From IMG/VR virus record IMGVR_UViG_647533158_000005: 44,739 nt of DNA. One strand, 5' to 3'. This DNA is from a virus. Taxonomy: Duplodnaviria; Heunggongvirae; Uroviricota; Caudoviricetes. Shown here one piece after another: positions 4,324 through 42,000 of this stretch. Under the pieces are notes generated by a model. That model did no database searches. It worked only from the letters and a program-made list of their open reading frames with translations, and was not told the DNA's origin. Both the position numbers and the translations under genes were made by a program. Numbering within the stretch: position 1 is the first letter of the stretch; every line of letters starts with the position of its first letter.

Positions 4324-4897
4324 CATTATCGCGTCCTCAACAATGAATTTTGTGATGCAGTGCCTGGTGCCTCCAGGTGACGTTAACCAGTTAACAATTA
4401 ACGCCGGAATACATAAGAGGATACTTACGCCAGTAAAAGACCTCTTTACTGATTTAACTGTTCCGCGTGCGCATAGCCGCATTCACCGCATCACAAAATT
4501 CACTTTAAAAAGGGCGGCAGAGCAGTCACGGAGTAAAACTGATACCGCCAAATGTCACCAGAAAATTGATAACAGAGGGCGTTGCAGCGGGGTTGTCACT
4601 TAAGCGTATGGTCAACCTGACAACCCGGTGTCCTCAACGGGGAAGGAATAACCCCGCCATACTTACCGCCGCGCCATTTCGCGGAGTGCCGCAACCGGAA
4701 GCGCACGGTCGACGAAAATTTAACGACAGGCTATCTATGAACCAGCTACCTCGCCGTGCGCTTTCGCGTTATGGTCTGACTTTTCAGGGAAATATCCTTT
4801 CAGTAAACTGTCAGTGCCGGATGCTCACCCGTGTCCGGCGCACGCACTCCACCTCACCCGTGGAGAACTCCTTAATCACCAACCCTCAGGAGGGTGA

Positions 4898-26723: not shown

Positions 26724-28228
26724 TGGCAATTAGTGATGATGTGATTGGTTTTTTCTCGCCTGGCTGGAAGGCAGCGCGATTACGCTCAAGGGCGTTAATT
26801 ATGGCCTATGAGGCCGTGAAACCCACCAGGACGCATAAAGCCAGGCGGGAAAACCGTTCTGCCGATCAGCTCAGTAAATACGGTGCGGTTTCCCTGCGCG
26901 AGCAGGCCCGCTTTCTGGATATCAATCATGACCTGGTGATAGGCGTGTTTGACAAGCTGGAGGAGCGGGTGATTGGTGCGAAGGGGATCACCGTTGAGCC
27001 TCATCCGGTGATGAAAAACGGGGAGATTGCGGCGGAGCTGGCAGCGGATATCCGACGGCTGTGGGCGGAATGGTCTGTCAGTCCGGATGTGACCGGACAG
27101 TACACCCGCCCCATGCTGGAGCGTCTGTTGCTGCGTACCTGGTTGCGTGACGGGGAAGTGTTTGCGCAGATGGTCAGTGGTGCGGCAAACGGTCTTAAGC
27201 GGTCTGCCGGTGTGCCTTTCTGGCTTGATGCGATGGAGCCGGATTTTGTACCCATGCGCAGTGATGAGTCTGCCGGACTGAATCAGGGCGTTTTTCTGGA
27301 TGAGTGGGGCAGGCCGAAAAAATATCTGGTTTACAAAAGTTATCCGGTTTCCGGGATACAGAGTGATACCAAAGAGATCGCCGCAGACAAAATGGTCCAT
27401 CTGAAATTCACCCGCCGCCTGCACCAGACGCGTGGTGCGTCCATGTTGTCCGGTGTGATGGTGCGTATCAGTGCGCTTAAGGAATATGAAGATGCCGAAC
27501 TGACAGCGGCGCGTATTGCTGCGGCACTGGGGCTGTATATCCGTAAGGGTGACGGACAGGATTACGACGAACAGGGGGCAGACAAAAAAGAAGAGCGGGA
27601 AGTGCATATCACTCCGGGCATTATCTATGACGATTTGCGCAAGGGTGAGGATATCGGCATGGTCAAATCCGACCGTCCTAATCCCAATCTTGAAAATTTT
27701 CGTAACGGTCAGCTGCGTGCGGTGGCGGCAGGCAGTCGTCTGAGCTTTTCCAGTACCGCACGCAACTACAACGGCACCTACAGTTCACAGCGGCAGGAGC
27801 TGGTCGAGTCCACCGACGGTTACCTTATCCTGCAGGACTGCTTTATTGGCGCGGTAACCCGCCCGGTGTACCGTGCATGGCTGAATATGGTGGTTGCTGC
27901 CGGTCTGCTGAAAATCCCGTCTTGCCTGGATATGAAGACGTTATATAACGCGACATATTCCGGTCCGGTGATGCCGTGGATAGATCCGGTTAAGGAGGCT
28001 GAAGCCTGGCGGATACAGATCCGGGGTGGTGCCGCGACGGAATCAGACTGGGTACGTGCCGGTGGACGTCATCCGGATGAGGTTAAACGTCGCCGCAAGG
28101 CTGAAACTGAGGAAAACCGCAGACTGGGGCTGGTCTATGATACTGACCCCGTCAACGACAAAGGAGGCAACAGTGCCGGAACTGAACAACAGCGTCAGCA
28201 GGCCACCGACAGCCAGCATGAAGAATAA
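26723..28228 (+). CDS. Portal protein
   Basis: 501-aa ORF directly after terminase/W, before the protease-capsid gene; size and order typical of a lambdoid portal. Confidence 0.8.
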   Translation: MAISDDVIGFFSPGWKAARLRSRALIMAYEAVKPTRTHKARRENRSADQLSKYGAVSLREQARFLDINHDLVIGVFDKLEERVIGAKGITVEPHPVMKNGEIAAELAADIRRLWAEWSVSPDVTGQYTRPMLERLLLRTWLRDGEVFAQMVSGAANGLKRSAGVPFWLDAMEPDFVPMRSDESAGLNQGVFLDEWGRPKKYLVYKSYPVSGIQSDTKEIAADKMVHLKFTRRLHQTRGASMLSGVMVRISALKEYEDAELTAARIAAALGLYIRKGDGQDYDEQGADKKEEREVHITPGIIYDDLRKGEDIGMVKSDRPNPNLENFRNGQLRAVAAGSRLSFSSTARNYNGTYSSQRQELVESTDGYLILQDCFIGAVTRPVYRAWLNMVVAAGLLKIPSCLDMKTLYNATYSGPVMPWIDPVKEAEAWRIQIRGGAATESDWVRAGGRHPDEVKRRRKAETEENRRLGLVYDTDPVNDKGGNSAGTEQQRQQATDSQHEE

Positions 28229-30197
28229 ATCCTGGTTCAGGATGCAGGCGGGTGGTCAGGGTGAGGCGGATATTTATATTTATGACGAGATTGGTTTCTG
28301 GGGAGTTACCGCGAAGCAGTTTGTCTGCGATCTGAATGCTCTGGGTGATATCACCCACATTAATCTCCATATCAACTCACCGGGTGGCGATGTCTTTGAA
28401 GGCATCGCCATTTTTAATGCCCTGAAAAATCAGGGGGCGACCATTACCGTGTATGTGGATGGCGTTGCCGCATCGATGGCATCCGTGATTGCGATGGCCG
28501 GTGATACGGTCATTATGCCGGAAAATGCTTTCATGATGATCCATAAGCCATGGGGCTTCAGTGAGGGGGATGCTGAGGATATGCGCAGTTATGCCGATCT
28601 GCTGGATAAAATCGAATCGGTACTGTTGCCAGCCTATGCGCAAAAAACAGGAAAAACCACCGATGAAATTGCCGCCATGCTGGCGGATGAGACCTGGATG
28701 TCAGGTGCCGAGTGTCTGGCACACGGATTTGCTGACCAGGTGACGCCAGCCGTTAAGGCAATGGCATGTATTCAGTCAAAACGTACAGAGGAATTTAAAA
28801 AGATGCCGGAATCCATCCGAAACATGATTACTCCGCCACGCAACAGTGCCCCGCGTGATACCACAGTGACAATCCCTGCACCGGCGGTAACAGAACCATC
28901 ACCGGTACCGGCAGTGTCTGATGAGGAGACCATTCGCGCTGGTGTCCTGGCTGAGCAGAAAGCCCGCATGTCAGGCATTAACGATCTGTTTGCCATGTTT
29001 GGCGGTCGCTATCAGACGCTTCAGGCACAGTGCGTGGCCGATCCTGACTGTTCGCTGGAAATGGCCCGTGAACGTCTGCTGAATGAAATGGGTAAGGAAT
29101 CCTCACCGACTAACAAAACGGCACCGGCTCATATTTATGCCGGAAACGGTAATTTTGTTGGAGACGGGATCCGCAAGGCGCTGATGGCCCGCGCCGGATT
29201 TGAGACTACGGAGAAGGATAATGCCTATAACGGTATGACCCTGCGTGAATGCGCCCGCATGTCACTGACGGAACGGGGGATCGGGGTGGCCAGTTATAAC
29301 CCTATGCAGATGGTGGGGCTGGCGCTGACGCACAGTACCTCGGATTTTGGCAATATTCTACTGGATGTGTCGAATAAGGGGCTGATCCAGGGCTGGGAGG
29401 AATCAGAAGAAACCTTCCAGAAATGGACCCGCAAAGGTCGCCTGTCTGACTTCAAAACGGCATACCGTGTGGGGATGGGGGGATTTGGCTCTCTGCGTCA
29501 GGTGCGGGAAGGGGCGGAGTACAAATACATCACCACCTCTGACCGTAAGGAGACCATTGCACTGGCGACCTACGGGGAAATTTTCTCCATCACCCGTCAG
29601 GCCATTATCAATGATGACCTGAATATGCTGGTGGATGTGCCGATGAAGATGGGGCGTGCCGCGAAAGCGACGATTGGTGACCTGGTCTACAAGGTGTTAA
29701 CGGATAACCCGAAACTGTCAGACGGTAAGGCGCTGTTCCATGCCGATCACAAGAATATTGCCACGGGCGGGATCTCCGTTTCGGGGCTGGATGCGGCACG
29801 TCAGATGATGCGTCTGCAGAAAGAGGGCGATCGTGCGCTGAATATCCGTCCGGCCTTTATGCTGGTGCCGGTGGCACTGGAGACAGTGGCAAACCAGACC
29901 ATCAAATCGGCCAGTGTGAAAGGGGCGGATGCAAACGCCGGTGTCATTAACCCCATCCAGAACTTTGCTGAAGTGATTGCAGAAGCGCGTCTCGATGCGG
30001 CAGATCCGAAAACCTGGTATCTGGCTGCGGCACAGGGGACCGACACCATTGAAGTGGCCTGGCTGGATGGTGTGGACACGCCCTACATTGACCAGCAGGA
30101 GGGTTTCACCACTGACGGTATCGCCACAAAAATCCGTATCGATGCCGGTGTGGCACCGCTTGACTGGCGTGGGCTGGTGCGTTCAGCCGCTGCCTGA
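28218..30197 (+). CDS. Prohead protease (ClpP/S49-like) fused to major capsid protein
   Basis: ATG at 28218; N-terminal ClpP-like region (...HINSPGGDV...VAASMASVIAMAGD...MIHKPWG), Ala/Pro-rich linker, C-terminal major-capsid-like domain; fusion architecture as in 933W-type head modules. Confidence 0.8.
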   Translation: MKNKSWFRMQAGGQGEADIYIYDEIGFWGVTAKQFVCDLNALGDITHINLHINSPGGDVFEGIAIFNALKNQGATITVYVDGVAASMASVIAMAGDTVIMPENAFMMIHKPWGFSEGDAEDMRSYADLLDKIESVLLPAYAQKTGKTTDEIAAMLADETWMSGAECLAHGFADQVTPAVKAMACIQSKRTEEFKKMPESIRNMITPPRNSAPRDTTVTIPAPAVTEPSPVPAVSDEETIRAGVLAEQKARMSGINDLFAMFGGRYQTLQAQCVADPDCSLEMARERLLNEMGKESSPTNKTAPAHIYAGNGNFVGDGIRKALMARAGFETTEKDNAYNGMTLRECARMSLTERGIGVASYNPMQMVGLALTHSTSDFGNILLDVSNKGLIQGWEESEETFQKWTRKGRLSDFKTAYRVGMGGFGSLRQVREGAEYKYITTSDRKETIALATYGEIFSITRQAIINDDLNMLVDVPMKMGRAAKATIGDLVYKVLTDNPKLSDGKALFHADHKNIATGGISVSGLDAARQMMRLQKEGDRALNIRPAFMLVPVALETVANQTIKSASVKGADANAGVINPIQNFAEVIAEARLDAADPKTWYLAAAQGTDTIEVAWLDGVDTPYIDQQEGFTTDGIATKIRIDAGVAPLDWRGLVRSAAA

Positions 30198-31929: not shown

Positions 31930-32688
31930 ATGCCAACACCTAATCCCCTTGAGCCGGTAAAAGGCTCAGGCACCACACTCTGGCTTTATTCCGGGAATGG
32001 TGATGCCTATGCGAATCCGTTGTCTGATGATGACTGGACGCGACTGGCGAAAATCAAGGATCTGACACCGGGAGAAATGACGGCAGAGTCCTACGACGAT
32101 AACTACCTGGACGACGATGATGCTGACTGGGTATCCACCGGACAGGGACAGAAATCAGCCGGTGATACCAGTTTTACCCTGGCCTGGAAACCCGGCGAAG
32201 CCGGTCAGCAGGCGTTGTTGCGGTGGTTTGATGAGGGCGATTCAAGAGCCTACAAAATTCGTTTTCCCAATGGCACGGTGGATGTGTTCCGTGGCTGGGT
32301 GAGCAGTATCGGCAAGGCAGTCACCGCAAAAGAGGTGATCACCCGCACGGTGAAAGTCACCAATATCGGACGCCCGTCGCTGGCGGAGGACAGCGGCACC
32401 ATCACGCCGGTGACGGGGATCTCCGTCACACCGGCCACGGCCTCTGTTGAGGTCGGGAAAACGGTGGAACTGACGGTGGCCGTTCAGCCTGATACAGCAT
32501 CGGACAAAACCTTCAGGGTGTCATCTGACCACAACAGTGTGGCGACAGTGACCGTGAAGGACAGCATCATAACGGTGAAAGGGGTGGCAAAAGGCACTGC
32601 GCTTATTCCTGTCATGAGCAATGGCGGCGATTTTGCTGCAGTAGCCACAGTAACGGTCACCGACCCTGCAGCACAACCCACCACGTAA
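31930..32688 (+). CDS. V: Major tail protein V with C-terminal Ig-like domain
   Basis: 252-aa ORF in the lambda gpV position; C-terminal Thr/Val-rich Ig-like region. Confidence 0.85.
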
Positions 32689-32706
32689 TTATCCCGGAGT
32701 GAATTT

Positions 32707-33123
32707 ATGTTTCTGAAAACTGAAACGTTTGAATATAACGGGCAGACCGTCACGCTCAGCGAACTGTCCGCCCTGCAGCGCCTCGAGTACCTGGCCTGGG
32801 TGAAGGAGAAGGAAGAACAGCGGGAAGAGGCTGTCAGTGAGCAGCAGGCGCTTGATGATCTCGTCAGAGAGGGTGCCCTGCTGGTTGCGATGTCGCTCTG
32901 GCATAACCATGAACTGAAAGGCACGTTACCCTCCCTGCGTCAGGAGACTGACAGGATCATGCAGGAGGTGCTGACCACCTGGCCTGTGGAGGCCATCGCC
33001 GCAGGTCGAAACGTGGCAGTCAGGCTGAGCGGTATGTCCGCGCCTGTGGATGAGCCATCCGGGAAACAGGAGAAAAAACCGGCTGAACCGGTAACGGCAA
33101 AAAAGCGTACGAAGGCGAGCTGA
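32707..33123 (+). CDS. G: Tail assembly chaperone G
   Basis: 138-aa product MFLKTETFEYNGQTVTLSELSALQRLEYLA...LVAMSLWHNH...EVLTTWP closely matches lambda gpG. Confidence 0.88.
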   Translation: MFLKTETFEYNGQTVTLSELSALQRLEYLAWVKEKEEQREEAVSEQQALDDLVREGALLVAMSLWHNHELKGTLPSLRQETDRIMQEVLTTWPVEAIAAGRNVAVRLSGMSAPVDEPSGKQEKKPAEPVTAKKRTKAS

Positions 33124-33533
33124 ATTTTGCCCTGAAACTGGCGCGCGAGATGGGACGTCCTGACTGGCGCGCCATGCTTGCCGGGATGTCATCAACTGAA
33201 TATGCCGACTGGTGTCATTTTTACCGCACGCATTATTTTCACGATGCACAACTGGACATGCATTTTGCCGGGCTGACGTACGCTGTACTCAGCCTGTTTT
33301 TTGCCGATCCACAGATGCATCCGTCTGACTTCAGCCTCCTGCGAGCGACGGAGAACGGGGAGGACGATGATGTGCTGATGCAAAAAGCAGCAGGGCTGGC
33401 TGGTGGTGTCCGTTATGGTCCGGATGGTGTGGTGGTGGAATATGACCGCCTGACACCCTCCGTGCCTGAAGATGACGCCATGCTGATGACGGTATCAGAA
33501 GGTATCGCAGGAGGTGTCCGCTATGTCGGGTAA
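32707..33533 (+). CDS. Tail assembly chaperone G-T fusion via programmed -1 ribosomal frameshift
   Basis: Slippery heptamer A AAA AAG at 33099-33105 in the G frame; the -1 frame is open from the slip site through the T-like ORF (33150..33533) to its stop. Confidence 0.7.
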
Positions 33534-36135
33534 CTTTGCAGATCTGACAGCAATTCTTACCCTGGATTCCACCCGTTTTTCTGAAGAAATGGGGCGGGTG
33601 AAAAAATCGCTGGGCGAAACCAGTTCACTGGCAGACACGATGTCAGGAAAGGTCAGCCAGTCCTTAAAAAAACCTGCAGAGGCGATTGAACAGAGTCTCA
33701 GCCGTCAGGCTGTTGCCGCGCAGAAAGCGGGGATATCCATCGGGCAGTATAAAGCTGCCATGCGGACACTGCCCGCCCAGTTCACGGATATTGCCACTCA
33801 GCTTGCCGGTGGTCAGAGTCCGTGGTTGATCCTGCTGCAGCAGGGCGGGCAGATTAAGGACTCCTTTGGTGGTCTTGTCCCGATGTTCAGGAGCCTTGCT
33901 GGTGCGATCACACTGCCTGCTGTCGGGATCACATCACTGGTCGCAGCGACCGGTGCGCTGGCGTATGCCTGGTACCAGGGTGATTCAGTCCTGTCTGAAT
34001 TCAATAAAACCCTGGTTCTTTCCGGTAATCAGTCCGGACTGACTGCCGATCGCATGCTGACTCTCTCCAGAGCCGGACAGGCCGCAGGGCTGACGTTTAA
34101 TCAGGCGAGTGAGTCACTGGCAGCCCTGGTCAGTGCCGGTGTGCGTGGTGGTGAACAGTTTGATGCCATTAATCAGAGTGTGGCGCGTTTTGCTTCTGCA
34201 TCCGGTGTGGAAGTGGACAAGGTTGCAGAGGCTTTCGGAAAACTGACCACCGACCCGACGTCGGGGCTGACGGCGATGGCGCGCCAGTTCCATAACGTGA
34301 CGGCGGAGCAGATTGCGTATGTGGCTCAGTTGCAGCGTTCCGGCGATGAGGCCGGGGCATTGCAGGCGGCGAACGAGGTCGCCACAAAAGGGTTTGATGA
34401 CCAGACCCGACGCCTGAAAGCGAACATGGGCACGCTGGAGACCTTGGCGGATAAGGTCGGCAGTGCGTTTAAATCCATGTGGGATGCAGTGCTGGATATC
34501 GGGCGTCCTGAGTCATCTGCAGAAATGCTGAATAAGGCACAGCAGGCATTCGATGAGGCGGATAAAAAATGGCAGTGGTATCAGAGTCGCAGCCACCGTC
34601 GCGGAAAAACATCCTCCTTCCGTGCCAATCTTCAGGGCGCATGGGATGACCGCGAAAACGCCCGCCTCGGTCTTTCAGCGGCGACACTGCAGGCAGACCT
34701 GGAAAAAGCCAGCGAAATGGCGGCACGGGATCGGGCTGAATCAGAGGCCTCACGGCTGAAGTACACCGAAGAGGCGCAGAAGGCATATGAACGCCTGCTG
34801 ACGCCGCTGGATAAATATACCGCCCGCCAGAAGGAACTGAATAAGGCACTGAAAGACGGGAAAATCCTGCAGGCAGATTACAACACGCTGATGGCGTCGG
34901 CGAAAAAGGACTATGAGTCGACGCTGAAAAAACCGAAGTCGTCAGGTGTAAAAGTGTCAGCCGGTGAACGTCAGGAAGACCAGGCGCATGCTGCCCTGCT
35001 GGCGCTTGAAACCGAGCTCCGGACGCTGGAAAAACACAGCGGTGCGAATGAGAAAATCAGCCAGCAGCGTCGCGATTTATGGAAAGCGGAAAGTCAGTAC
35101 GCGGTACTGGCGGAGGCGGCACAACGTCGCCAGTTGTCCGTACAGGAGAAATCCCTGCTGGCGCATAAAGATGAGACGCTGGAGTACAAACGCCAGCTGG
35201 CTGACCTGGGCGATAAGGTTGAACACCAGAAACGCCTGAATGAGCTGGCGGATCAGGCGGAGAAATTTGCACAGCAGCAGAGTGCAAAACAGGCTGCCAT
35301 CAGTGCAAAAGCCCGTGGGCTGACAGACCGGCAGGCACAGCGGGAGTCGGAAGAACAGCGGTTGCGTGAGGTGTATGGCGACAATCCGCAGGCGCTGGCG
35401 AAGGCAACCGGTGCGCTGAAACAGACATGGGCTGCTGAAGACCAGCTGAGTGGCAGCTGGACAGCCGGACTTAAATCGGGCTGGAGCCAGTGGGCTGAAA
35501 GTGCGATGGACAGTTTTTCGCAGGTAAAAAGTGTTGCCACGCAGACCTTCGACGGGATTGCGCAGAATATGGCGGCGATGCTGACCGGCAGCGAACAGAA
35601 CTGGCGCAGCTTTACCCGTTCCGTGCTGTCCATGATGACGGAAATTCTGCTTAAGCAGGCCATGGTGGGGATTGTCGGGAGTATCGGCAGCGCCATCGGG
35701 GGAGCCATTGGTGGGGGGGCGTCCGCTTCTTCCGGGACTGCCATTCAGGCTGCGGCAGCGAACTTTCATTTTGCGACCGGGGGATTTACGGGTACGGGTG
35801 GAAAATACGAGCCGGCGGGGATTGTTCACCGTGGTGAGTTTGTGTTCACGAAGGAGGCAACCAGCCGGATTGGTGTCGGCAACCTGTACCGCCTGATGCG
35901 GGGATATGCGGATGGGGGCTATGTGGGTGGTGCCGGAAGTCAGGCTCAGATGCGGCGGGAAGACGTCATTAATTTTAATCAGAATAACAATGTGGTGATT
36001 CAGAATGACGGTATCAACGGACAGGCCGGTCCGCAGATGATGAAGGCGGTATATGACATGGCCCGTAAGGGTGCCCGTGATGAACTCCAGGCGCAGATGC
36101 GTGATGGCGGACTGTTCTCCGGAGGTGGCTCATGA
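33514..36135 (+). CDS. H: Tail tape measure protein H
   Basis: 873-aa ORF, Ala/Gln-rich coiled-coil composition, located between G-T and M. Confidence 0.9.
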   Translation: MSAMSGNFADLTAILTLDSTRFSEEMGRVKKSLGETSSLADTMSGKVSQSLKKPAEAIEQSLSRQAVAAQKAGISIGQYKAAMRTLPAQFTDIATQLAGGQSPWLILLQQGGQIKDSFGGLVPMFRSLAGAITLPAVGITSLVAATGALAYAWYQGDSVLSEFNKTLVLSGNQSGLTADRMLTLSRAGQAAGLTFNQASESLAALVSAGVRGGEQFDAINQSVARFASASGVEVDKVAEAFGKLTTDPTSGLTAMARQFHNVTAEQIAYVAQLQRSGDEAGALQAANEVATKGFDDQTRRLKANMGTLETLADKVGSAFKSMWDAVLDIGRPESSAEMLNKAQQAFDEADKKWQWYQSRSHRRGKTSSFRANLQGAWDDRENARLGLSAATLQADLEKASEMAARDRAESEASRLKYTEEAQKAYERLLTPLDKYTARQKELNKALKDGKILQADYNTLMASAKKDYESTLKKPKSSGVKVSAGERQEDQAHAALLALETELRTLEKHSGANEKISQQRRDLWKAESQYAVLAEAAQRRQLSVQEKSLLAHKDETLEYKRQLADLGDKVEHQKRLNELADQAEKFAQQQSAKQAAISAKARGLTDRQAQRESEEQRLREVYGDNPQALAKATGALKQTWAAEDQLSGSWTAGLKSGWSQWAESAMDSFSQVKSVATQTFDGIAQNMAAMLTGSEQNWRSFTRSVLSMMTEILLKQAMVGIVGSIGSAIGGAIGGGASASSGTAIQAAAANFHFATGGFTGTGGKYEPAGIVHRGEFVFTKEATSRIGVGNLYRLMRGYADGGYVGGAGSQAQMRREDVINFNQNNNVVIQNDGINGQAGPQMMKAVYDMARKGARDELQAQMRDGGLFSGGGS

Positions 36136-37919: not shown

Positions 37920-38994
37920 AAACGGGGGCTGAAGCCATCCGCGCACNNNNNNNNNNNNNNNNNNNNNNNNNNNNNNNNNNNNNNNNNNNNNNNNNNNNNN
38001 NNNNNNNNNNNNNNNNNNNNNNNNNNNNNNNNNNNNNNNNNNNNNNNNNNNNNNNNNNNNNNNNNNNNNNNNNNNNNNNNNNNNNNNNNNNNNNNNNNNN
38101 NNNNNNNNNNNNNNNNNNNNNNNNNNNNNNNNNNNNNNNNNNNNNNNNNNNNNNNNNNNNNNNNNNNNNNNNNNNNNNNNNNNNNNNNNNNNNNNNNNNN
38201 NNNNNNNNNNNNNNNNNNNNNNNNNNNNNNNNNNNNNNNNNNNNNNNNNNNNNNNNNNNNNNNNNNNNNNNNNNNNNNNNNNNNNNNNNNNNNNNNNNNN
38301 NNNNNNNNNNNNNNNNNNNNNNNNNNNNNNNNNNNNNNNNNNNNNNNNGGCGTCACCGGGCATGGCGCGAATCTGCCTTTACGGGGATTTACAACGATTT
38401 GGCCGCCGCATCGACCTGCGTGTGAAAACGGGGGCTGAAGCCATCCGCGCACTGGCCACACAGCTCCCGGTGTTTCGTCAGAAACTGAGCGACGGCTGGT
38501 ATCAGGTACGGATTGCCGGGCGGGACGTCAGCACGTTCGGGTTAACGGCGCAGTTACATGAGACTCTGCCTGATGGCGCTGTGATTCATATTGTTCCCAG
38601 AGTCGCCGGGGCCAAGTCAGGTGGCGTATTCCAGATTGTCCTGGGGGCTGCCGCCATTGCCGGATCATTCTTTACCGCCGGAGCCACCCTTGCAGCATGG
38701 GGGGCAGCCATTGGGGCCGGTGGTATGACCGGCATCCTGTTTTCTCTCGGTGCCAGTATGGTGCTCGGTGGTGTGGCGCAGATGCTGGCACCGAAAGCCA
38801 GAACTCCCCGTACACAGACAACGGATAACGGCAAACAGAACACCTATTTCTCCTCACTGGATAACATGGTTGCCCAGGGCAATGTTCTGCCGGTTCTGTA
38901 CGGTGAAATGCGCGTGGGGTCACGCGTGGTTTCTCAGGAGATCAGCACGGCAGACGAAGGGGATGGTGGTCAGGTTGTGGTGATTGGTCGCTGA
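37817..38994 (+). CDS. I: Tail assembly protein I (interrupted by assembly gap and duplicated flank)
   Basis: Starts MAATHTLPLASPGMARICLYGDLQRFGRR as lambda gpI; after the gap the same 104 nt recur and the frame continues to ...QVVVIGR; removing gap plus duplicate gives a 223-aa protein. Confidence 0.75.
37947..38348. other. Assembly gap (402 N)
   Basis: Run of n; identical 104-nt sequence on both sides (37843-37946 = 38349-38452). Confidence 0.95.
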
Positions 38995-39054: not shown

Positions 39055-42000
39055 ATGGGTAAAGGCAGCAGTAAGGGGCATACCCCGCGCGAAGCGAAGG
39101 ACAACCTGAAGTCCACGCAGCTGCTGAGTGTGATCGATGCCATCAGCGAAGGGCCGGTTGAAGGTCCGGTGGATGGATTAAAAAGCGTGCTGCTGAACAG
39201 TACGCCGGTGCTGGACAGTGAGGGGAATACCAATATATCCGGCGTCACGGTGGTGTTCCGGGCCGGTGAGCAGGAGCAGACACCGCCGGAGGGATTTGAA
39301 TCCTCCGGCTCCGAGACGGTGCTGGGTACGGAAGTGAAGTACGACACGCCGATTACCCGGACCATCACGTCTGCAAACATCGACCGTCTGCGCTTTACCT
39401 TCGGTGTGCAGGCACTGGTGGAAACCACCTCAAAGGGTGACAGGAATCCGTCGGAAGTCCGTCTGCTGGTTCAGATACAACGTAACGGTGGCTGGGTGAC
39501 GGAAAAAGACATCACCATTAAGGGCAAAACCACCTCGCAGTATCTGGCCTCGGTGGTGGTGGGTAACCTGCCGCCGCGCCCGTTTAATATCCGGATGTGC
39601 AGGATGACGCCGGACAGCACCACAGACCAGCTGCAGAACAAAACGCTCTGGTCGTCATACACCGAAATCATCGATGTGAAACAGTGCTACCCGAACACGG
39701 CACTGGTTGGCGTGCAGGTGGACTCGGAGCAGTTCGGCAGCCAGCAGGTGAGCCGTAATTATCATCTTCGCGGGCGCATTCTGCAGGTGCCGTCGAACTA
39801 TAACCCGCAGACACGGCAATACAGCGGTATCTGGGACGGAACGTTTAAGCCGGCATACAGCAACAACCCGGCCTGGTGTCTGTGGGATATGCTGACCCAC
39901 CCGCGCTACGGCATGGGGAAACGTCTTGGTGCGGCAGATGTGGATAAATGGGCGCTGTATGTCATCGGCCAGTACTGCGACCAGTCGGTGCCGGACGGCT
40001 TTGGCGGCACGGAGCCGCGCATCACCTGTAATGCGTACCTGACCACACAGCGCAAGGCGTGGGATGTGCTCAGTGATTTCTGCTCGGCGATGCGCTGTAT
40101 GCCGGTATGGAACGGGCAGACGCTGACGTTCGTGCAGGACCGGCCGTCGGATAAGGTGTGGACCTATAACCGCAGTAATGTGGTGATGCCGGATGATGGC
40201 GNNNNNNNNNNNNNNNNNNNNNNNNNNNNNNNNNNNNNNNNNNNNNNNNNNNNNNNNNNNNNNNNNNNNNNNNNNNNNNNNNNNNNNNNNNNNNNNNNNN
40301 NNNNNNNNNNNNNNNNNNNNNNNNNNNNNNNNNNNNNNNNNNNNNNNNNNNNNNNNNNNNNNNNNNNNNNNNNNNNNNNNNNNNNNNNNNNNNNNNNNNN
40401 NNNNNNNNNNNNNNNNNNNNNNNNNNNNNNNNNNNNNNNNNNNNNNNNNNNNNNNNNNNNNNNNNNNNNNNNNNNNNNNNNNNNNNNNNNNNNNNNNNNN
40501 NNNNNNNNNNNNNNNNNNNNNNNNNNNNNNNNNNNNNNNNNNNNNNNNNNNNNNNNNNNNNNNNNNNNNNNNNNNNNNNNNNNNNNNNNNNNNNNNNNNN
40601 NNNNNNNNNNNNNNNNNNNNNNNNNNNNNNNNNNNNNNNNNNNNNNNNNNNNNNNNNNNNNNNNNNNNNNNNNNNNNNNNNNNNNNNNNNNNNNNNNNNN
40701 NNNNNNNNNNNNNNNNNNNNNNNNNNNNNNNNNNNNNNNNNNNNNNNNNNNNNNNNNNNNNNNNNNNNNNNNNNNNNNNNNNNNNNNNNNNNNNNNNNNN
40801 NNNNNNNNNNNNNNNNNNNNNNNNNNNNNNNNNNNNNNNNNNNNNNNNNNNNNNNNNNNNNNNNNNNNNNNNNNNNNNNNNNNNNNNNNNNNNNNNNNNN
40901 NNNNNNNNNNNNNNNNNNNNNNNNNNNNNNNNNNNNNNNNNNNNNNNNNNNNNNNNNNNNNNNNNNNNNNNNNNNNNNNNNNNNNNNNNNNNNNNNNNNN
41001 NNNNNNNNNNNNNNNNNNNNNNNNNNNNNNNNNNNNNNNNNNNNNNNNNNNNNNNNNNNNNNNNNNNNNNNNNNNNNNNNNNNNNNNNNNNNNNNNNNNN
41101 NNNNNNNNNNNNNNNNNNNNNNNNNNNNNNNNNNNNNNNNNNNNNNNNNNNGGACAGCAGGGCGAACCGGCATCGGTATCGTTCCGGATTGCCGCACCGG
41201 CAGCGCCTGCCACCATTGAACTGATACCGGGGTATTTTCAGATAACGGCGGTCCCGAAACTGGCGGTATATGACCCGACGGTGCAGTTTGAGTTCTGGTT
41301 CTCGGAAAAGCGGATTGCGGAAATCAGGCAGGTTGAAACCACAGCCCGCTATCTTGGCACGGCGCTGTACTGGATAGCCGCCAGTATCAATATCAGGCCA
41401 GGCCATGATTATTATTTTTACGTTCGCAGTGTTAACACCGTGGGTAAGTCGGCATTTGTGGAGGCCGTCGGTCAGCCCAGCGATGATGCGGAAGGTTATC
41501 TTAATTTTTACAAGGGGCTGATTAATAAAACGCATCTTGGCAGGGAACTGCTGGAGAATTTCGAACTGACAGAGGATAACGCCAGCAGGCTTGATGAGTT
41601 CACGAAACAGTGGAAAGACGCTAACGATAAATGGAATGCCATGTGGGGCGTCAAAATTGAGCAGACCGAAGACGGTAAACATTATGTTGCCGGGATTGGC
41701 CTCAGCATGGAGGAGACGGAAGAAGGAAAACTGAGCGAGTTTCTTGTCGCCGCCAACCGTATCGCGTTTATTGACCCGGCAAACGGTAACTCAACGCCGA
41801 TGTTTGTGGCACAGGGCGATCAGATATTCATGAACGACGTGTTCCTGAAACGCCTGACGGCTCCCACCATTACCAGCGGCGGTAATCCCCCTGCATTTTC
41901 CCTGACTCCGGACGGAAAGCTGACCGCTAAAAATGCGGATATCAGCGGCAGTATCACCGCCAGTTCAGGCACGCTCAACAATGTGACGATAAACCAGGAC

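What the first reader, a model, noticed from the sequence alone, without database searches (positions are those of the whole stretch)
33099..33105. Conserved programmed -1 frameshift site (A AAA AAG) joining tail chaperones G and T
The slippery heptamer lies in the G frame 6 codons before its stop, and the -1 frame is open from the slip site through the T-like ORF to its stop, reproducing the lambda G/G-T arrangement.
Basis: partly seen in the sequence, partly recalled or inferred. Interest (0 to 1): 0.35.

Follow-up and report, generated by a model that had tools for sequence, protein, structure and literature searches.

The report
Lambda-type G/G-T tail chaperone frameshift site
This is an ordinary, well-understood phage feature: a slippery A AAA AAG sequence near the end of a lambda-like tail-chaperone gene lets a few percent of ribosomes slip back one base and make a longer G-T fusion protein needed to build the tail.

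Summary
Bases 33099-33105 read AAAAAAG and are phased gcA AAA AAG in a 138-aa ORF (32707-33123). That ORF is a clear lambda gpG homologue (Pfam Phage_TAC_2, 1.7e-40). The -1 frame is open only from 33087 and runs to the stop at 33531-33533 through a Phage_tail_T domain. The heptamer is the only slippery motif in the 37-nt overlap. The genes lie in lambda order, U-V-G-T-H-M-L.

In 110 related loci (50 distinct junctions) the core A_AAG sits at the same place, six codons before the G stop. Lambda-type loci have G GGA AAG there, this clade has A AAA AAG, and Kluyvera/Atlantibacter have G GAA AAG. The T-frame peptide upstream of T's ATG is conserved. That ATG has no Shine-Dalgarno sequence, and it is replaced by Phe in distant relatives.

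Published E. coli assays give A_AAA_AAG and G_GGA_AAG nearly equal frameshift efficiency, so this is a neutral swap of slippery sequence in a textbook system. A conserved downstream hairpin is possible but unproven.

Novelty is low: a new member of a known kind. The most interesting side observation is a prophage tRNA-Lys-like gene with an 8-nt anticodon loop at 16407-16484.

The parts
32707..33123 (+). Gene G: tail assembly chaperone, 138 aa, the product of standard translation. It has a GGAG Shine-Dalgarno sequence upstream.
   Evidence: Pfam PF06894 Phage_TAC_2, E = 1.7e-40, full-length match. 55-59% identity to lambda-type G proteins. SD duplex energy -6.7 kcal/mol.
33099..33105 (+). Slippery heptamer A AAA AAG, phased X XXY YYZ in the G frame. 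This is the site of the -1 shift, with tRNA-Lys in both the P and A sites.
   Evidence: It lies at the same position as lambda G GGA AAG in 110 loci. A_AAG is invariant in 50 distinct junctions. Published efficiencies in PMC4066793 Table S3.
33087..33123 (+). The G/T overlap: the only stretch where both the G frame and the T (-1) frame are open, 37 nt. Any productive shift must occur here.
   Evidence: The -1 frame stop is TGA at 33084-33086 and the G stop is TGA at 33121-33123.
33105..33533 (+). T segment, read in the -1 frame starting from the re-read G at 33105. It forms the C-terminal 142 residues of the G-T fusion (275 aa in total, 32707-33105 joined to 33105-33533). The first 15 codons (AYEGELNFALKLARE) lie upstream of the ATG at 33150 that automatic annotation uses as the start.
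   Evidence: Pfam PF06223 Phage_tail_T, 6.3e-15. Fusion built. 64% identity to the lambda G-T fusion. The pre-ATG peptide is conserved. There is no start codon in the T frame between 33087 and 33150. The ATG has no SD, -1.8 kcal/mol.
33114..33182 (+). Candidate downstream stimulatory hairpin, unproven. Helix A pairs 33114-33120 with 33176-33182. Helix B pairs 33139-33146 with 33167-33174. It begins after an 8-nt spacer from the heptamer.
   Evidence: MFE -34.4 kcal/mol, z = -1.62, not significant. 94.7% of cells are paired across 22 distinct relatives, with one compensatory G:C to A:U change, but the covariation term is only -0.52 and Atlantibacter breaks helix B. Coordinates. PMC4066793 Table S4 flags a downstream structure for both tail-chaperone clusters.
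31930..32688 (+). Gene V: major tail tube protein with a C-terminal Ig-like domain. This is the upstream neighbour and the partner bound by the T domain in lambda.
   Evidence: Pfam Phage_TTP_12 1.7e-68 plus Big_2 1.5e-16.
33523..36135 (+). Gene H: tape measure protein. This is the downstream neighbour and the partner bound by the G domain in lambda. The likely start is ATG 33523, which has a strong SD; the ORF opens at GTG 33514. It overlaps the end of T.
   Evidence: Pfam TMP_2 2.1e-68 and Tape_meas_lam_C 3.7e-21. SD GGAGGUGU, -13.1 kcal/mol, 5 nt before ATG 33523.

Best explanation
This is a programmed -1 ribosomal frameshift site of the lambda G/G-T type. Ribosomes start at ATG 32707. Most terminate at TGA 33121 and make the 138-aa chaperone G. 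A minority, probably a few percent, pause with tRNA-Lys on AAA in the P site and on AAG in the A site. Both tRNAs slip back one base onto AAA AAA. Translation then continues in the -1 frame (GCG TAC GAA ...) to TAA 33531, giving a 275-aa G-T fusion. By homology with lambda, the shared G part binds the tape measure protein H and the T part recruits the tail tube protein V. The fixed low G-T to G ratio set by the slip frequency is what tail assembly needs, and neither protein ends up in the virion. Shown here: the sequence anatomy, the homology, the positional conservation and the lack of independent start signals for T. Inferred: that the shift occurs, its rate, and the protein functions.
For: 1. 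Anatomy. The heptamer is in X XXY YYZ phase. It is the only such motif in a 37-nt overlap, and the -1 frame is open to the T stop.
2. Homology and synteny. G is Phage_TAC_2 at 1.7e-40 and T is Phage_tail_T at 6.3e-15. The flanking genes are U, V, H, M and L in lambda order.
3. Positional homology. In 110 loci (50 distinct junctions) A_AAG lies six codons before the G stop. The variants are G GGA AAG (lambda itself), A AAA AAG (this clade, 8 distinct sequences with variable flanks) and G GAA AAG (Kluyvera, Atlantibacter).
4. T cannot be made on its own. There is no ATG, GTG or TTG in the T frame between 33087 and 33150. The ATG at 33150 has an SD duplex of -1.8 kcal/mol against -5.9 to -13.8 for eight neighbouring starts. 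The 15 codons before it are conserved as protein, with variation concentrated at T-frame third positions. In Kluyvera and Atlantibacter that Met is Phe.
5. The fusion is collinear with the lambda G-T fusion, 64% identity and E = 1e-128.
6. Chance is about 0.25%.
7. Literature. [quoted passage not shown] In-phase A_AAA_AAG is strongly avoided in genes, z = -10.1 (PMC4066793). Lambda G:GT is about 30:1 and the roles of G and T are described in PMC5009743. The lambda shift is about 4% and depends on tRNA-Lys(UUU) modification (PMC3296357). A AAA AAG is already accepted as the shift site of another E. coli prophage tail chaperone, ECs1801, cluster A_AAA_AAG_25.
Against: There is no direct evidence of frameshifting for this locus, and no G-T fusion protein of this clade was found among database proteins. 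Public annotation of the closest prophages lists G and T as separate genes with no slippage join. No significant stimulatory element was demonstrated: there is no upstream SD-like sequence (-3.1 kcal/mol) and the downstream hairpin has z = -1.62. The bare heptamer gives only about 0.3% shifting in reporter assays without stimulators, so the actual rate here is unknown.
Confidence: 0.93

Rival explanations
1. T is an independent gene translated from its own ATG at 33150, either by de novo initiation or by reinitiation after the G stop. This is how automatic annotation shows it. On this reading the heptamer is incidental.
For: An ATG exists at 33150, 26 nt after the G stop. PGAP annotates the equivalent ORF as a separate 'phage tail assembly protein T' in the closest E. 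coli prophages.
Against: There is no Shine-Dalgarno sequence: -1.8 kcal/mol against -5.9 to -13.8 for neighbouring genes. The 15 T-frame codons upstream of the ATG are conserved as protein back to the slip site in all clades. In Kluyvera and Atlantibacter the ATG is TTT. In lambda the T sequence is made only as part of the G-T fusion (PMC5009743). The heptamer is positionally invariant.
Confidence: 0.03
2. The G-T product arises mainly by transcriptional slippage. RNA polymerase adds one extra A in the A6 run (33099-33104), and normal translation of that mRNA gives the same G-T protein.
For: The site contains six consecutive A's. Inserting one A gives exactly the same protein as a -1 ribosomal shift (sequence logic). 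Poly-A runs are known slippage sites (PMC3711429; PMC5009743).
Against: Efficient bacterial transcriptional slippage is documented for runs of about 9 A or T (PMC5009743), or more than 7 A (PMC3711429). Here the run is 6. The homologous sites G GGA AAG and G GAA AAG have only 3-4 A's and cannot work this way, yet they sit at the same position. The invariant element is A_AAG including the G, which is a ribosomal rather than a polymerase signature.
Confidence: 0.03
3. The heptamer is a chance or relic feature in a decaying prophage, and no functional G-T is made.
For: Some relatives are clearly degraded. There are truncated G genes in L031 and L101, a T pseudogene in strain CFIAFB20140388 and an H pseudogene in strain A8. 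The window itself contains masked N runs in the tail-tip region.
Against: In this window G, T and H are intact and full length. The chance of such a heptamer is about 0.25%. It is retained across 8 distinct clade members whose flanking synonymous sites vary.
Confidence: 0.01

Closest known systems
Bacteriophage lambda G / G-T programmed -1 frameshift (slip site G GGA AAG; Levin, Hendrix and Casjens 1993; Xu, Hendrix and Duda 2004, 2013, 2014, as cited in PMC5009743)
   Same: The protein families are the same (Phage_TAC_2 plus Phage_tail_T) and so is the gene order V-G-T-H. The slip position is the same, six codons before the G stop, and the A-site codon AAG is the same. The fusion is collinear with 64% identity. 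Neither has an upstream SD element. The potential downstream hairpin is the same.
   Different: The P-site codon is AAA (Lys) instead of GGA (Gly), so both slipping tRNAs are tRNA-Lys and the junction dipeptide is Lys-Lys rather than Gly-Lys. The overlap is shorter, 37 nt against 52-73 nt. The G domain is only 55-59% identical. Lambda has a GTG codon at the slip site, which its record uses as the start of the T CDS; this window has GCG there.
E. coli O157:H7 Sakai prophage Sp9 ECs1801/ECs1802 (cluster A_AAA_AAG_25, 'tail assembly chaperone; [true]', Sharma et al. 2014, PMC4066793 Table S4)
   Same: It has the same heptamer A AAA AAG, in phase at the end of a tail chaperone gene. The -1 frame continues into a Phage_tail_T domain, and the pair lies between the major tail and tape measure genes.
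   Different: The chaperone belongs to a different family: Phage_TAC_1 (PF06222, HK97-like), with no detectable similarity to this G (BLASTP E = 22). The heptamer directly abuts the stop codon (AAG TAG) rather than lying six codons before it.
E. coli dnaX gamma/tau -1 frameshift (A AAA AAG with an upstream SD-like element and a downstream stem-loop)
   Same: The heptamer is identical and the tRNA-Lys(UUU) slippage chemistry on AAG is the same (PMC5009743; PMC3711429).
   Different: It is an unrelated gene. dnaX shifting is about 50%, driven by two strong stimulators, and it shortens the product. Here there is no SD-like element and only an unproven hairpin, and the shift lengthens the product. 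The expected rate is a few percent by analogy with lambda.

Membership tests
Lambda-type G/G-T tail assembly chaperone frameshift | The upstream ORF is a gpG-family tail assembly chaperone. | tested here: met
   PF06894 Phage_TAC_2, E = 1.7e-40, residues 1-122 of 138. Aligns with lambda-type G proteins.
Lambda-type G/G-T tail assembly chaperone frameshift | The downstream ORF is in the -1 frame, overlaps the end of G and encodes a gpT domain. | tested here: met
   The -1 frame is open from 33087 to 33533. PF06223 Phage_tail_T, 6.3e-15.
Lambda-type G/G-T tail assembly chaperone frameshift | The gene pair lies between the major tail protein and tape measure protein genes. | tested here: met
   V is at 31930-32688 and H at 33514/33523-36135, with U upstream and M and L downstream.
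Lambda-type G/G-T tail assembly chaperone frameshift | A slippery heptamer in X XXY YYZ phase lies inside the overlap, at the position of the proven lambda site. | tested here: met
   A AAA AAG at 33099-33105 is the only such motif in the overlap. It is in the same register as G GGA AAG of lambda NC_001416 and of 37 distinct lambda-type junctions.
Lambda-type G/G-T tail assembly chaperone frameshift | T has no independent translation start, and the T-frame coding sequence extends back to the slip site. | tested here: met
   There is no start codon between 33087 and 33150. There is no SD at ATG 33150. The pre-ATG peptide is conserved, and Met is replaced by Phe in distant relatives.
Lambda-type G/G-T tail assembly chaperone frameshift | A G-T fusion protein is actually made at a low fixed ratio to G (about 1:30 in lambda). 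| not testable with these tools
   This needs protein expression or ribosome profiling. The only support is published heptamer efficiencies and the lambda values.
Lambda-type G/G-T tail assembly chaperone frameshift | G and G-T are required for tail assembly, bind H and V respectively, and are absent from virions. | not testable with these tools
   This is inferred from homology alone. The lambda data are summarised in PMC5009743.
dnaX-type high-efficiency A AAA AAG frameshift signal | An internal Shine-Dalgarno-like stimulator lies about 10 nt upstream of the heptamer. | tested here: not met
   The best anti-SD duplex in the 25 nt upstream is -3.1 kcal/mol, against -7.0 for a dnaX-like AGGGAG.
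dnaX-type high-efficiency A AAA AAG frameshift signal | A stable stem-loop lies 5-9 nt downstream of the heptamer. | tested here: inconclusive
   A bipartite hairpin begins after an 8-nt spacer. Its z-score is -1.62. Pairing is conserved with one compensatory pair, but this is confounded by protein conservation.
Programmed transcriptional slippage | A homopolymeric A or T run long enough for RNA polymerase realignment (about 9 nt, or more than 7 A). | tested here: not met
   The run is 6 A. Homologous sites have 3-4 A. Thresholds come from PMC5009743 and PMC3711429.

The most novel reading that the evidence does not exclude
In this phage both slip-site codons are lysine (AAA AAG), so the G to G-T ratio depends entirely on tRNA-Lys(UUU). 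The same prophage carries a tRNA-Lys-like gene with an expanded 8-nt anticodon loop (anticodon UUUU, 16407-16484). This allele recurs in several complete E. coli genomes. The most novel reading not excluded is that this phage-encoded tRNA acts in trans on A-rich slip sites such as this one. It could tune the -1 shift frequency. Alternatively it could read AAAA as a quadruplet and give a third, +1 product: G with an alternative 20-residue tail, 151 aa in all. A conserved bipartite hairpin 8 nt downstream could be a second, so far uncharacterised modulator shared with lambda.
Probability: 0.03. Interest if true: 0.65.

Novelty: new member of a known kind. Interest (0 to 1): 0.1.

Why it matters
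The main value is for annotation. In this window, and in its closest relatives in RefSeq, T is or would be called as a separate gene starting at an internal ATG. That call drops 15 conserved codons and hides the real 275-aa G-T product. It should be annotated as a ribosomal-slippage join, 32707..33105,33105..33533.

The comparison also gives a small natural experiment. Within one protein family, at one fixed position, the P-site codon of the slip site has been exchanged (GGA, AAA, GAA) while A_AAG never changes. [quoted passage not shown] Nothing here changes the understanding of frameshifting or tail assembly.

Tried and rejected
1. A protein search with the inferred 275-aa fusion returned only partial or chimeric gene calls and no annotated full-length G-T fusion. 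It was uninformative, neither supporting nor refuting.
2. The second AAAAAAG with a long -1 extension, at 13443-13449, was rejected. Its '-1 frame' is simply the frame of the real gene 12963-13784, and its 'zero frame' is a spurious 65-codon open stretch.
3. An in-phase G GGA AAG on the minus strand (31167-31161) lies in an antisense ORF that overlaps plus-strand tail genes. I judged it spurious.
4. An upstream SD-like stimulator was looked for and none was found.
5. The downstream hairpin has a fold z-score of -1.62, which is not significant. The covariation test gave one compensatory pair, but the region encodes a highly conserved peptide and the most distant relative breaks four pairs. I left it as inconclusive.
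6. I tested whether the catalogued A_AAA_AAG tail-chaperone cluster (ECs1801) belongs to the same family as this G. It does not: it is Phage_TAC_1 with no similarity.
7. The odd tRNA was first suspected to be a homopolymer sequencing error unique to this window, with no exact match in IMG/VR. That idea was rejected when the same 8-nt loop was found in complete E. coli genomes.
8. A +1 shift at the site leads to a stop after 20 codons and not into T.

Full report
**1. The observation**

Bases 33099-33105 are AAAAAAG. The ORF 32707-33123 (138 aa) puts 33099 at a third codon position, so the zero-frame reading is GCA AAA AAG. That is the X XXY YYZ phasing needed for tandem -1 slippage.

The -1 frame carries a stop at 33084-33086 and is then open from 33087 to TAA 33531-33533. 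No stop lies between the heptamer and 33150. Both frames are open together for only 37 nt, and the heptamer is the only XXXYYYZ motif there. The +1 frame closes after 20 codons.

**2. Is it more than chance?**

The bare heptamer is common in this A-run-rich window: 24 copies on both strands against about 8 expected. Its mere presence therefore means little.

Only the copy at 33099 combines a long in-phase upstream ORF (137 codons), a stop within 7 codons and a -1 extension of 142 codons. A look-alike at 13443 is an artefact, because its '-1 frame' is the true gene frame of ORF 12963-13784.

The probability that one of the three high-efficiency E. coli heptamers falls in phase in this overlap is 0.24% by base composition and 0.26% by codon resampling of G.

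**3. What the genes are**

- The upstream ORF is a full-length match to Pfam Phage_TAC_2, 'bacteriophage lambda tail assembly chaperone, protein G' (1.7e-40).
- The -1 ORF matches Phage_tail_T (6.3e-15).
- The neighbours are tail terminator U, tail tube V (with an Ig-like domain), tape measure H, and M, all above Pfam thresholds. L follows from the ORF order.

This is the lambda order U-V-G-T-H-M-L. The window as a whole is a lambdoid E. coli-type prophage. Its late region is 88-93% identical to prophages in many E. coli genomes. The G/T allele itself is rare: only 9 of 5426 complete E. coli genomes hold most of the 1051-nt query, and the best match is 95.6% in mouse strains M1 and M3.

**4. 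Comparative evidence**

I collected 119 sequences: the window plus loci from annotated E. coli prophages, lambda-like phages, GTDB genomes and IMG/VR. In 110 of them the junction could be analysed, giving 50 distinct junction sequences with A_AAG at the homologous place. In every intact one, the four bases A_AAG lie at the same place, with AAG six codons from the end of G. These four columns show zero variability.

The three bases before them differ by clade:

| Slip site | Clade | Distinct junctions |
|---|---|---|
| G GGA AAG | lambda and lambda-type loci, including NC_001416 | 37 |
| A AAA AAG | this window's clade, G identity 67-100% | 8 |
| G GAA AAG | Kluyvera and Atlantibacter | 5 |

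Flanking synonymous sites differ within the window's clade, for example GGC/GGT before the heptamer and ACG/ATG after it. The window's site is therefore the positional homologue of the experimentally proven lambda site with the P-site codon changed. The inferred fusion (275 aa) aligns with the lambda fusion (279 aa) without a break across the junction, at 64% identity and E = 1e-128.

**5. T is not an independent gene**

- In the window no ATG, GTG or TTG exists in the T frame between 33087 and the ATG at 33150.
- That ATG has essentially no Shine-Dalgarno complementarity: -1.8 kcal/mol, against -5.9 to -13.8 for the starts of U, V, G, H, M, L and the other neighbouring ORFs.
- The 15 T-frame codons between the slip site and that ATG encode a peptide conserved in all clades: (A/V)(Y/F/L)(E/D/A)(G/S)ELxF(A/V)(L/M)(K/Q)LARE.
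- This nominally intergenic stretch is among the least variable parts of the locus, and its variation is highest at T-frame third positions.
- In Kluyvera and Atlantibacter the Met codon is TTT (Phe). The next in-frame start there would delete conserved sequence.

Public annotation nevertheless lists G and T as separate genes. In this clade T is called from the internal ATG. In lambda-type records, including the lambda reference, the T CDS begins at the last base of the heptamer.

**6. Mechanism**

- In lambda about 4% of ribosomes shift -1 at G GGA AAG, giving gpG and gpGT at about 30:1. The G part binds the tape measure and the T part binds the tail tube protein. Both dissociate and are absent from virions (PMC5009743; PMC3296357).
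- The shift depends on tRNA-Lys(UUU) at AAG. Loss of the U34 thiolation raises shifting and lowers phage yield (PMC3296357).
- In E. coli reporter assays A_AAA_AAG, G_GGA_AAG and C_CCA_AAG are the three most efficient heptamers.

| Heptamer | No stimulator | IS911 stimulators | IS3 pseudoknot |
|---|---|---|---|
| A_AAA_AAG | 0.29% | 4.3% | 39% |
| G_GGA_AAG | 0.28% | 3.8% | 43% |

- In-phase A_AAA_AAG is strongly avoided in E. coli genes, z = -10.1.

The change from GGA to AAA at the P site should therefore be functionally neutral. The one qualitative difference is that here both slipping tRNAs are tRNA-Lys and the junction is Lys-Lys.

**7. Stimulatory elements**

There is no SD-like sequence in the 25 nt upstream (-3.1 kcal/mol). 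Downstream, the minimum-energy fold is a bipartite hairpin that begins after an 8-nt spacer:

- helix A: 33114-33120 pairs with 33176-33182
- helix B: 33139-33146 pairs with 33167-33174

Its energy is not significantly better than shuffles (z = -1.62, 10 of 200 shuffles fold as well). Across 22 distinct relatives 94.7% of cells stay paired. One pair shows a compensatory G:C to A:U change in Kluyvera. Against that, the covariation term is only -0.52 kcal/mol, the Atlantibacter sequence breaks four pairs of helix B, and the region encodes a very conserved peptide.

Sharma et al. flag 'no SD, structure present' for both the gpG cluster and the A_AAA_AAG tail-chaperone cluster. The gap between 0.3% for a bare heptamer and about 4% for lambda suggests some context stimulation. 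I leave the hairpin as a candidate only.

**8. Rivals**

- Independent initiation of T is contradicted by section 5.
- Transcriptional slippage on the A6 run would give the same protein. However, documented bacterial slippage needs about 9 A or T, or more than 7 A. The homologous sites with 3-4 A's also cannot use it.
- A decayed relic is unlikely because G, T and H are intact here, although some relatives are degraded.

**9. Comparison with what is known, and novelty**

The locus meets every computationally testable defining feature of the lambda G/G-T system. The two features that need experiments, product ratio and assembly function, are untested.

A AAA AAG is already accepted as a tail-chaperone slip site in E. 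coli prophages: cluster A_AAA_AAG_25, represented by ECs1801. I checked that gene. It is a Phage_TAC_1 (HK97-type) chaperone with no similarity to this G, and it is joined by A AAA AAG to a Phage_tail_T domain. The lambda-type G cluster in that catalogue is G_GGA_AAG_4.

This window therefore shows the lambda G family using the other heptamer. That is a new member of a known kind, not a new variant of the mechanism. Interest is low. The practical consequence is correct annotation of the 275-aa G-T product.

**10. Side observations**

The most notable is a tRNA-Lys-like gene at 16407-16484, next to an ileZ-like tRNA(CAU). Its anticodon loop has eight bases, CUUUUUAU, and ARAGORN calls the anticodon 'tttt'. 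Rfam tRNA scores it 45.1 bits.

Close relatives have the normal seven-base loop CUUUUAU and are annotated tRNA-Lys. The 8-nt allele is not a one-off error. It is present with the same loop in complete E. coli genomes PG20180057, M3 and CI5, and probably in M18 and M1 from their ungapped hit geometry. There it is annotated tRNA-Lys and is 78 nt long.

Expanded anticodon loops are the hallmark of +1 frameshift-suppressor tRNAs. I found no paper in the searchable library on a natural prophage example. In strain M3 this tRNA and the A AAA AAG G/T allele lie about 0.9 Mb apart, so there is no evidence of functional linkage.

Other items are listed under 'noticed in passing'.

Noticed in passing
window 16407-16484 (+): A tRNA-Lys-like gene has an 8-nt anticodon loop (CUUUUUAU; ARAGORN calls the anticodon 'tttt'; Rfam tRNA 45.1 bits). 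Relatives have the normal 7-nt loop CUUUUAU (tRNA-Lys UUU). The same 8-nt allele occurs in complete E. coli genomes PG20180057, M3 and CI5, and probably in M18 and M1, so it is a real allele and not a sequencing error. It resembles +1 frameshift-suppressor tRNAs. No exact match was found in IMG/VR and no literature was found.
   Followed up: partly
window 16329-16404 (+): A tRNA with anticodon CAT lies directly upstream of the odd tRNA. It is annotated tRNA-Ile (ileZ-like, lysidine type) in E. coli relatives and tRNA-Met in phage records. This is the usual tRNA position downstream of the DNA methylase/Q region in Stx-type lambdoid prophages.
   Followed up: partly
L025-L027 (Kluyvera), L035-L036 (Atlantibacter), junction about 2850-2900 of each locus: Distant G/T homologues carry G GAA AAG, which is not a strict X XXY YYZ heptamer, at the homologous slip position. 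They have Phe instead of Met at the codon that annotation uses as the T start. This suggests that single-tRNA A_AAG slippage, or near-cognate P-site re-pairing, is enough.
   Followed up: partly
window 33114-33182 (+): A bipartite hairpin starts 8 nt after the heptamer. Its pairing potential is conserved from lambda to Kluyvera, with one compensatory pair. It could be a shared and so far uncharacterised modest stimulator of G/T frameshifting, but the evidence is confounded by protein conservation.
   Followed up: partly
window 37947-38348 and 40202-41151: Two runs of N (402 and 950 bases) lie inside the tail-tip and host-specificity (K/I/J) region. They are masked or unassembled sequence.
   Followed up: no
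L010-L022, L028-L029, L032-L034, L037-L038 (genome-contig hits): Sequences encoding lambda-type G (54-59% aa identity to the query; the full-length hits share the lambda-type junction) appear in low-coverage contigs of unlikely hosts, including Neobacillus, Oceanobacillus, Pseudomonas, Shewanella, Kitasatospora, Paenibacillus, Bradyrhizobium and Enterococcus. This is almost certainly phage lambda DNA contamination of those assemblies.
   Followed up: no
window 11127-11302 (+), 4512-4563 (-), 17112-17301 (+): Rfam matches above gathering score: the sok antitoxin RNA of a hok/sok-type toxin-antitoxin locus (116 bits), the DicF antisense sRNA (77 bits) and the STnc100 sRNA (102 bits). All are typical lambdoid prophage cargo.
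   Followed up: no
window 28026-30197 (+): A 723-aa ORF looks like a fusion of a ClpP-like prohead protease and the major capsid protein. This matches the product name given in related E. coli prophages.
   Followed up: no
L003-L006 (E. coli M3, 2017.17.03CC, SCU-111, A8); lambda NC_001416 (L123): Public annotation never shows the G-T fusion. In this clade PGAP starts T at the internal ATG, losing 15 conserved codons. In the lambda reference T is a separate CDS beginning at the last base of the heptamer, which there happens to form GTG.
   Followed up: yes
window 32600-33650 against lambda-like phages: Megablast similarity to many lambda, 434 and mEp-type phages begins at query base 503 (window 33102), right at the slip site, and covers T only at about 80% identity. 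The G part is too diverged to match. The T domain is much more conserved than the G domain, or there is a mosaic junction at the slip site.
   Followed up: no
window 13443-13449 (+) and 31167-31161 (-): Two other heptamers mimic a frameshift layout: AAAAAAG with a 111-codon '-1 extension', and an in-phase GGGAAAG in an antisense ORF. Both are artefacts of spurious ORFs overlapping real genes.
   Followed up: yes
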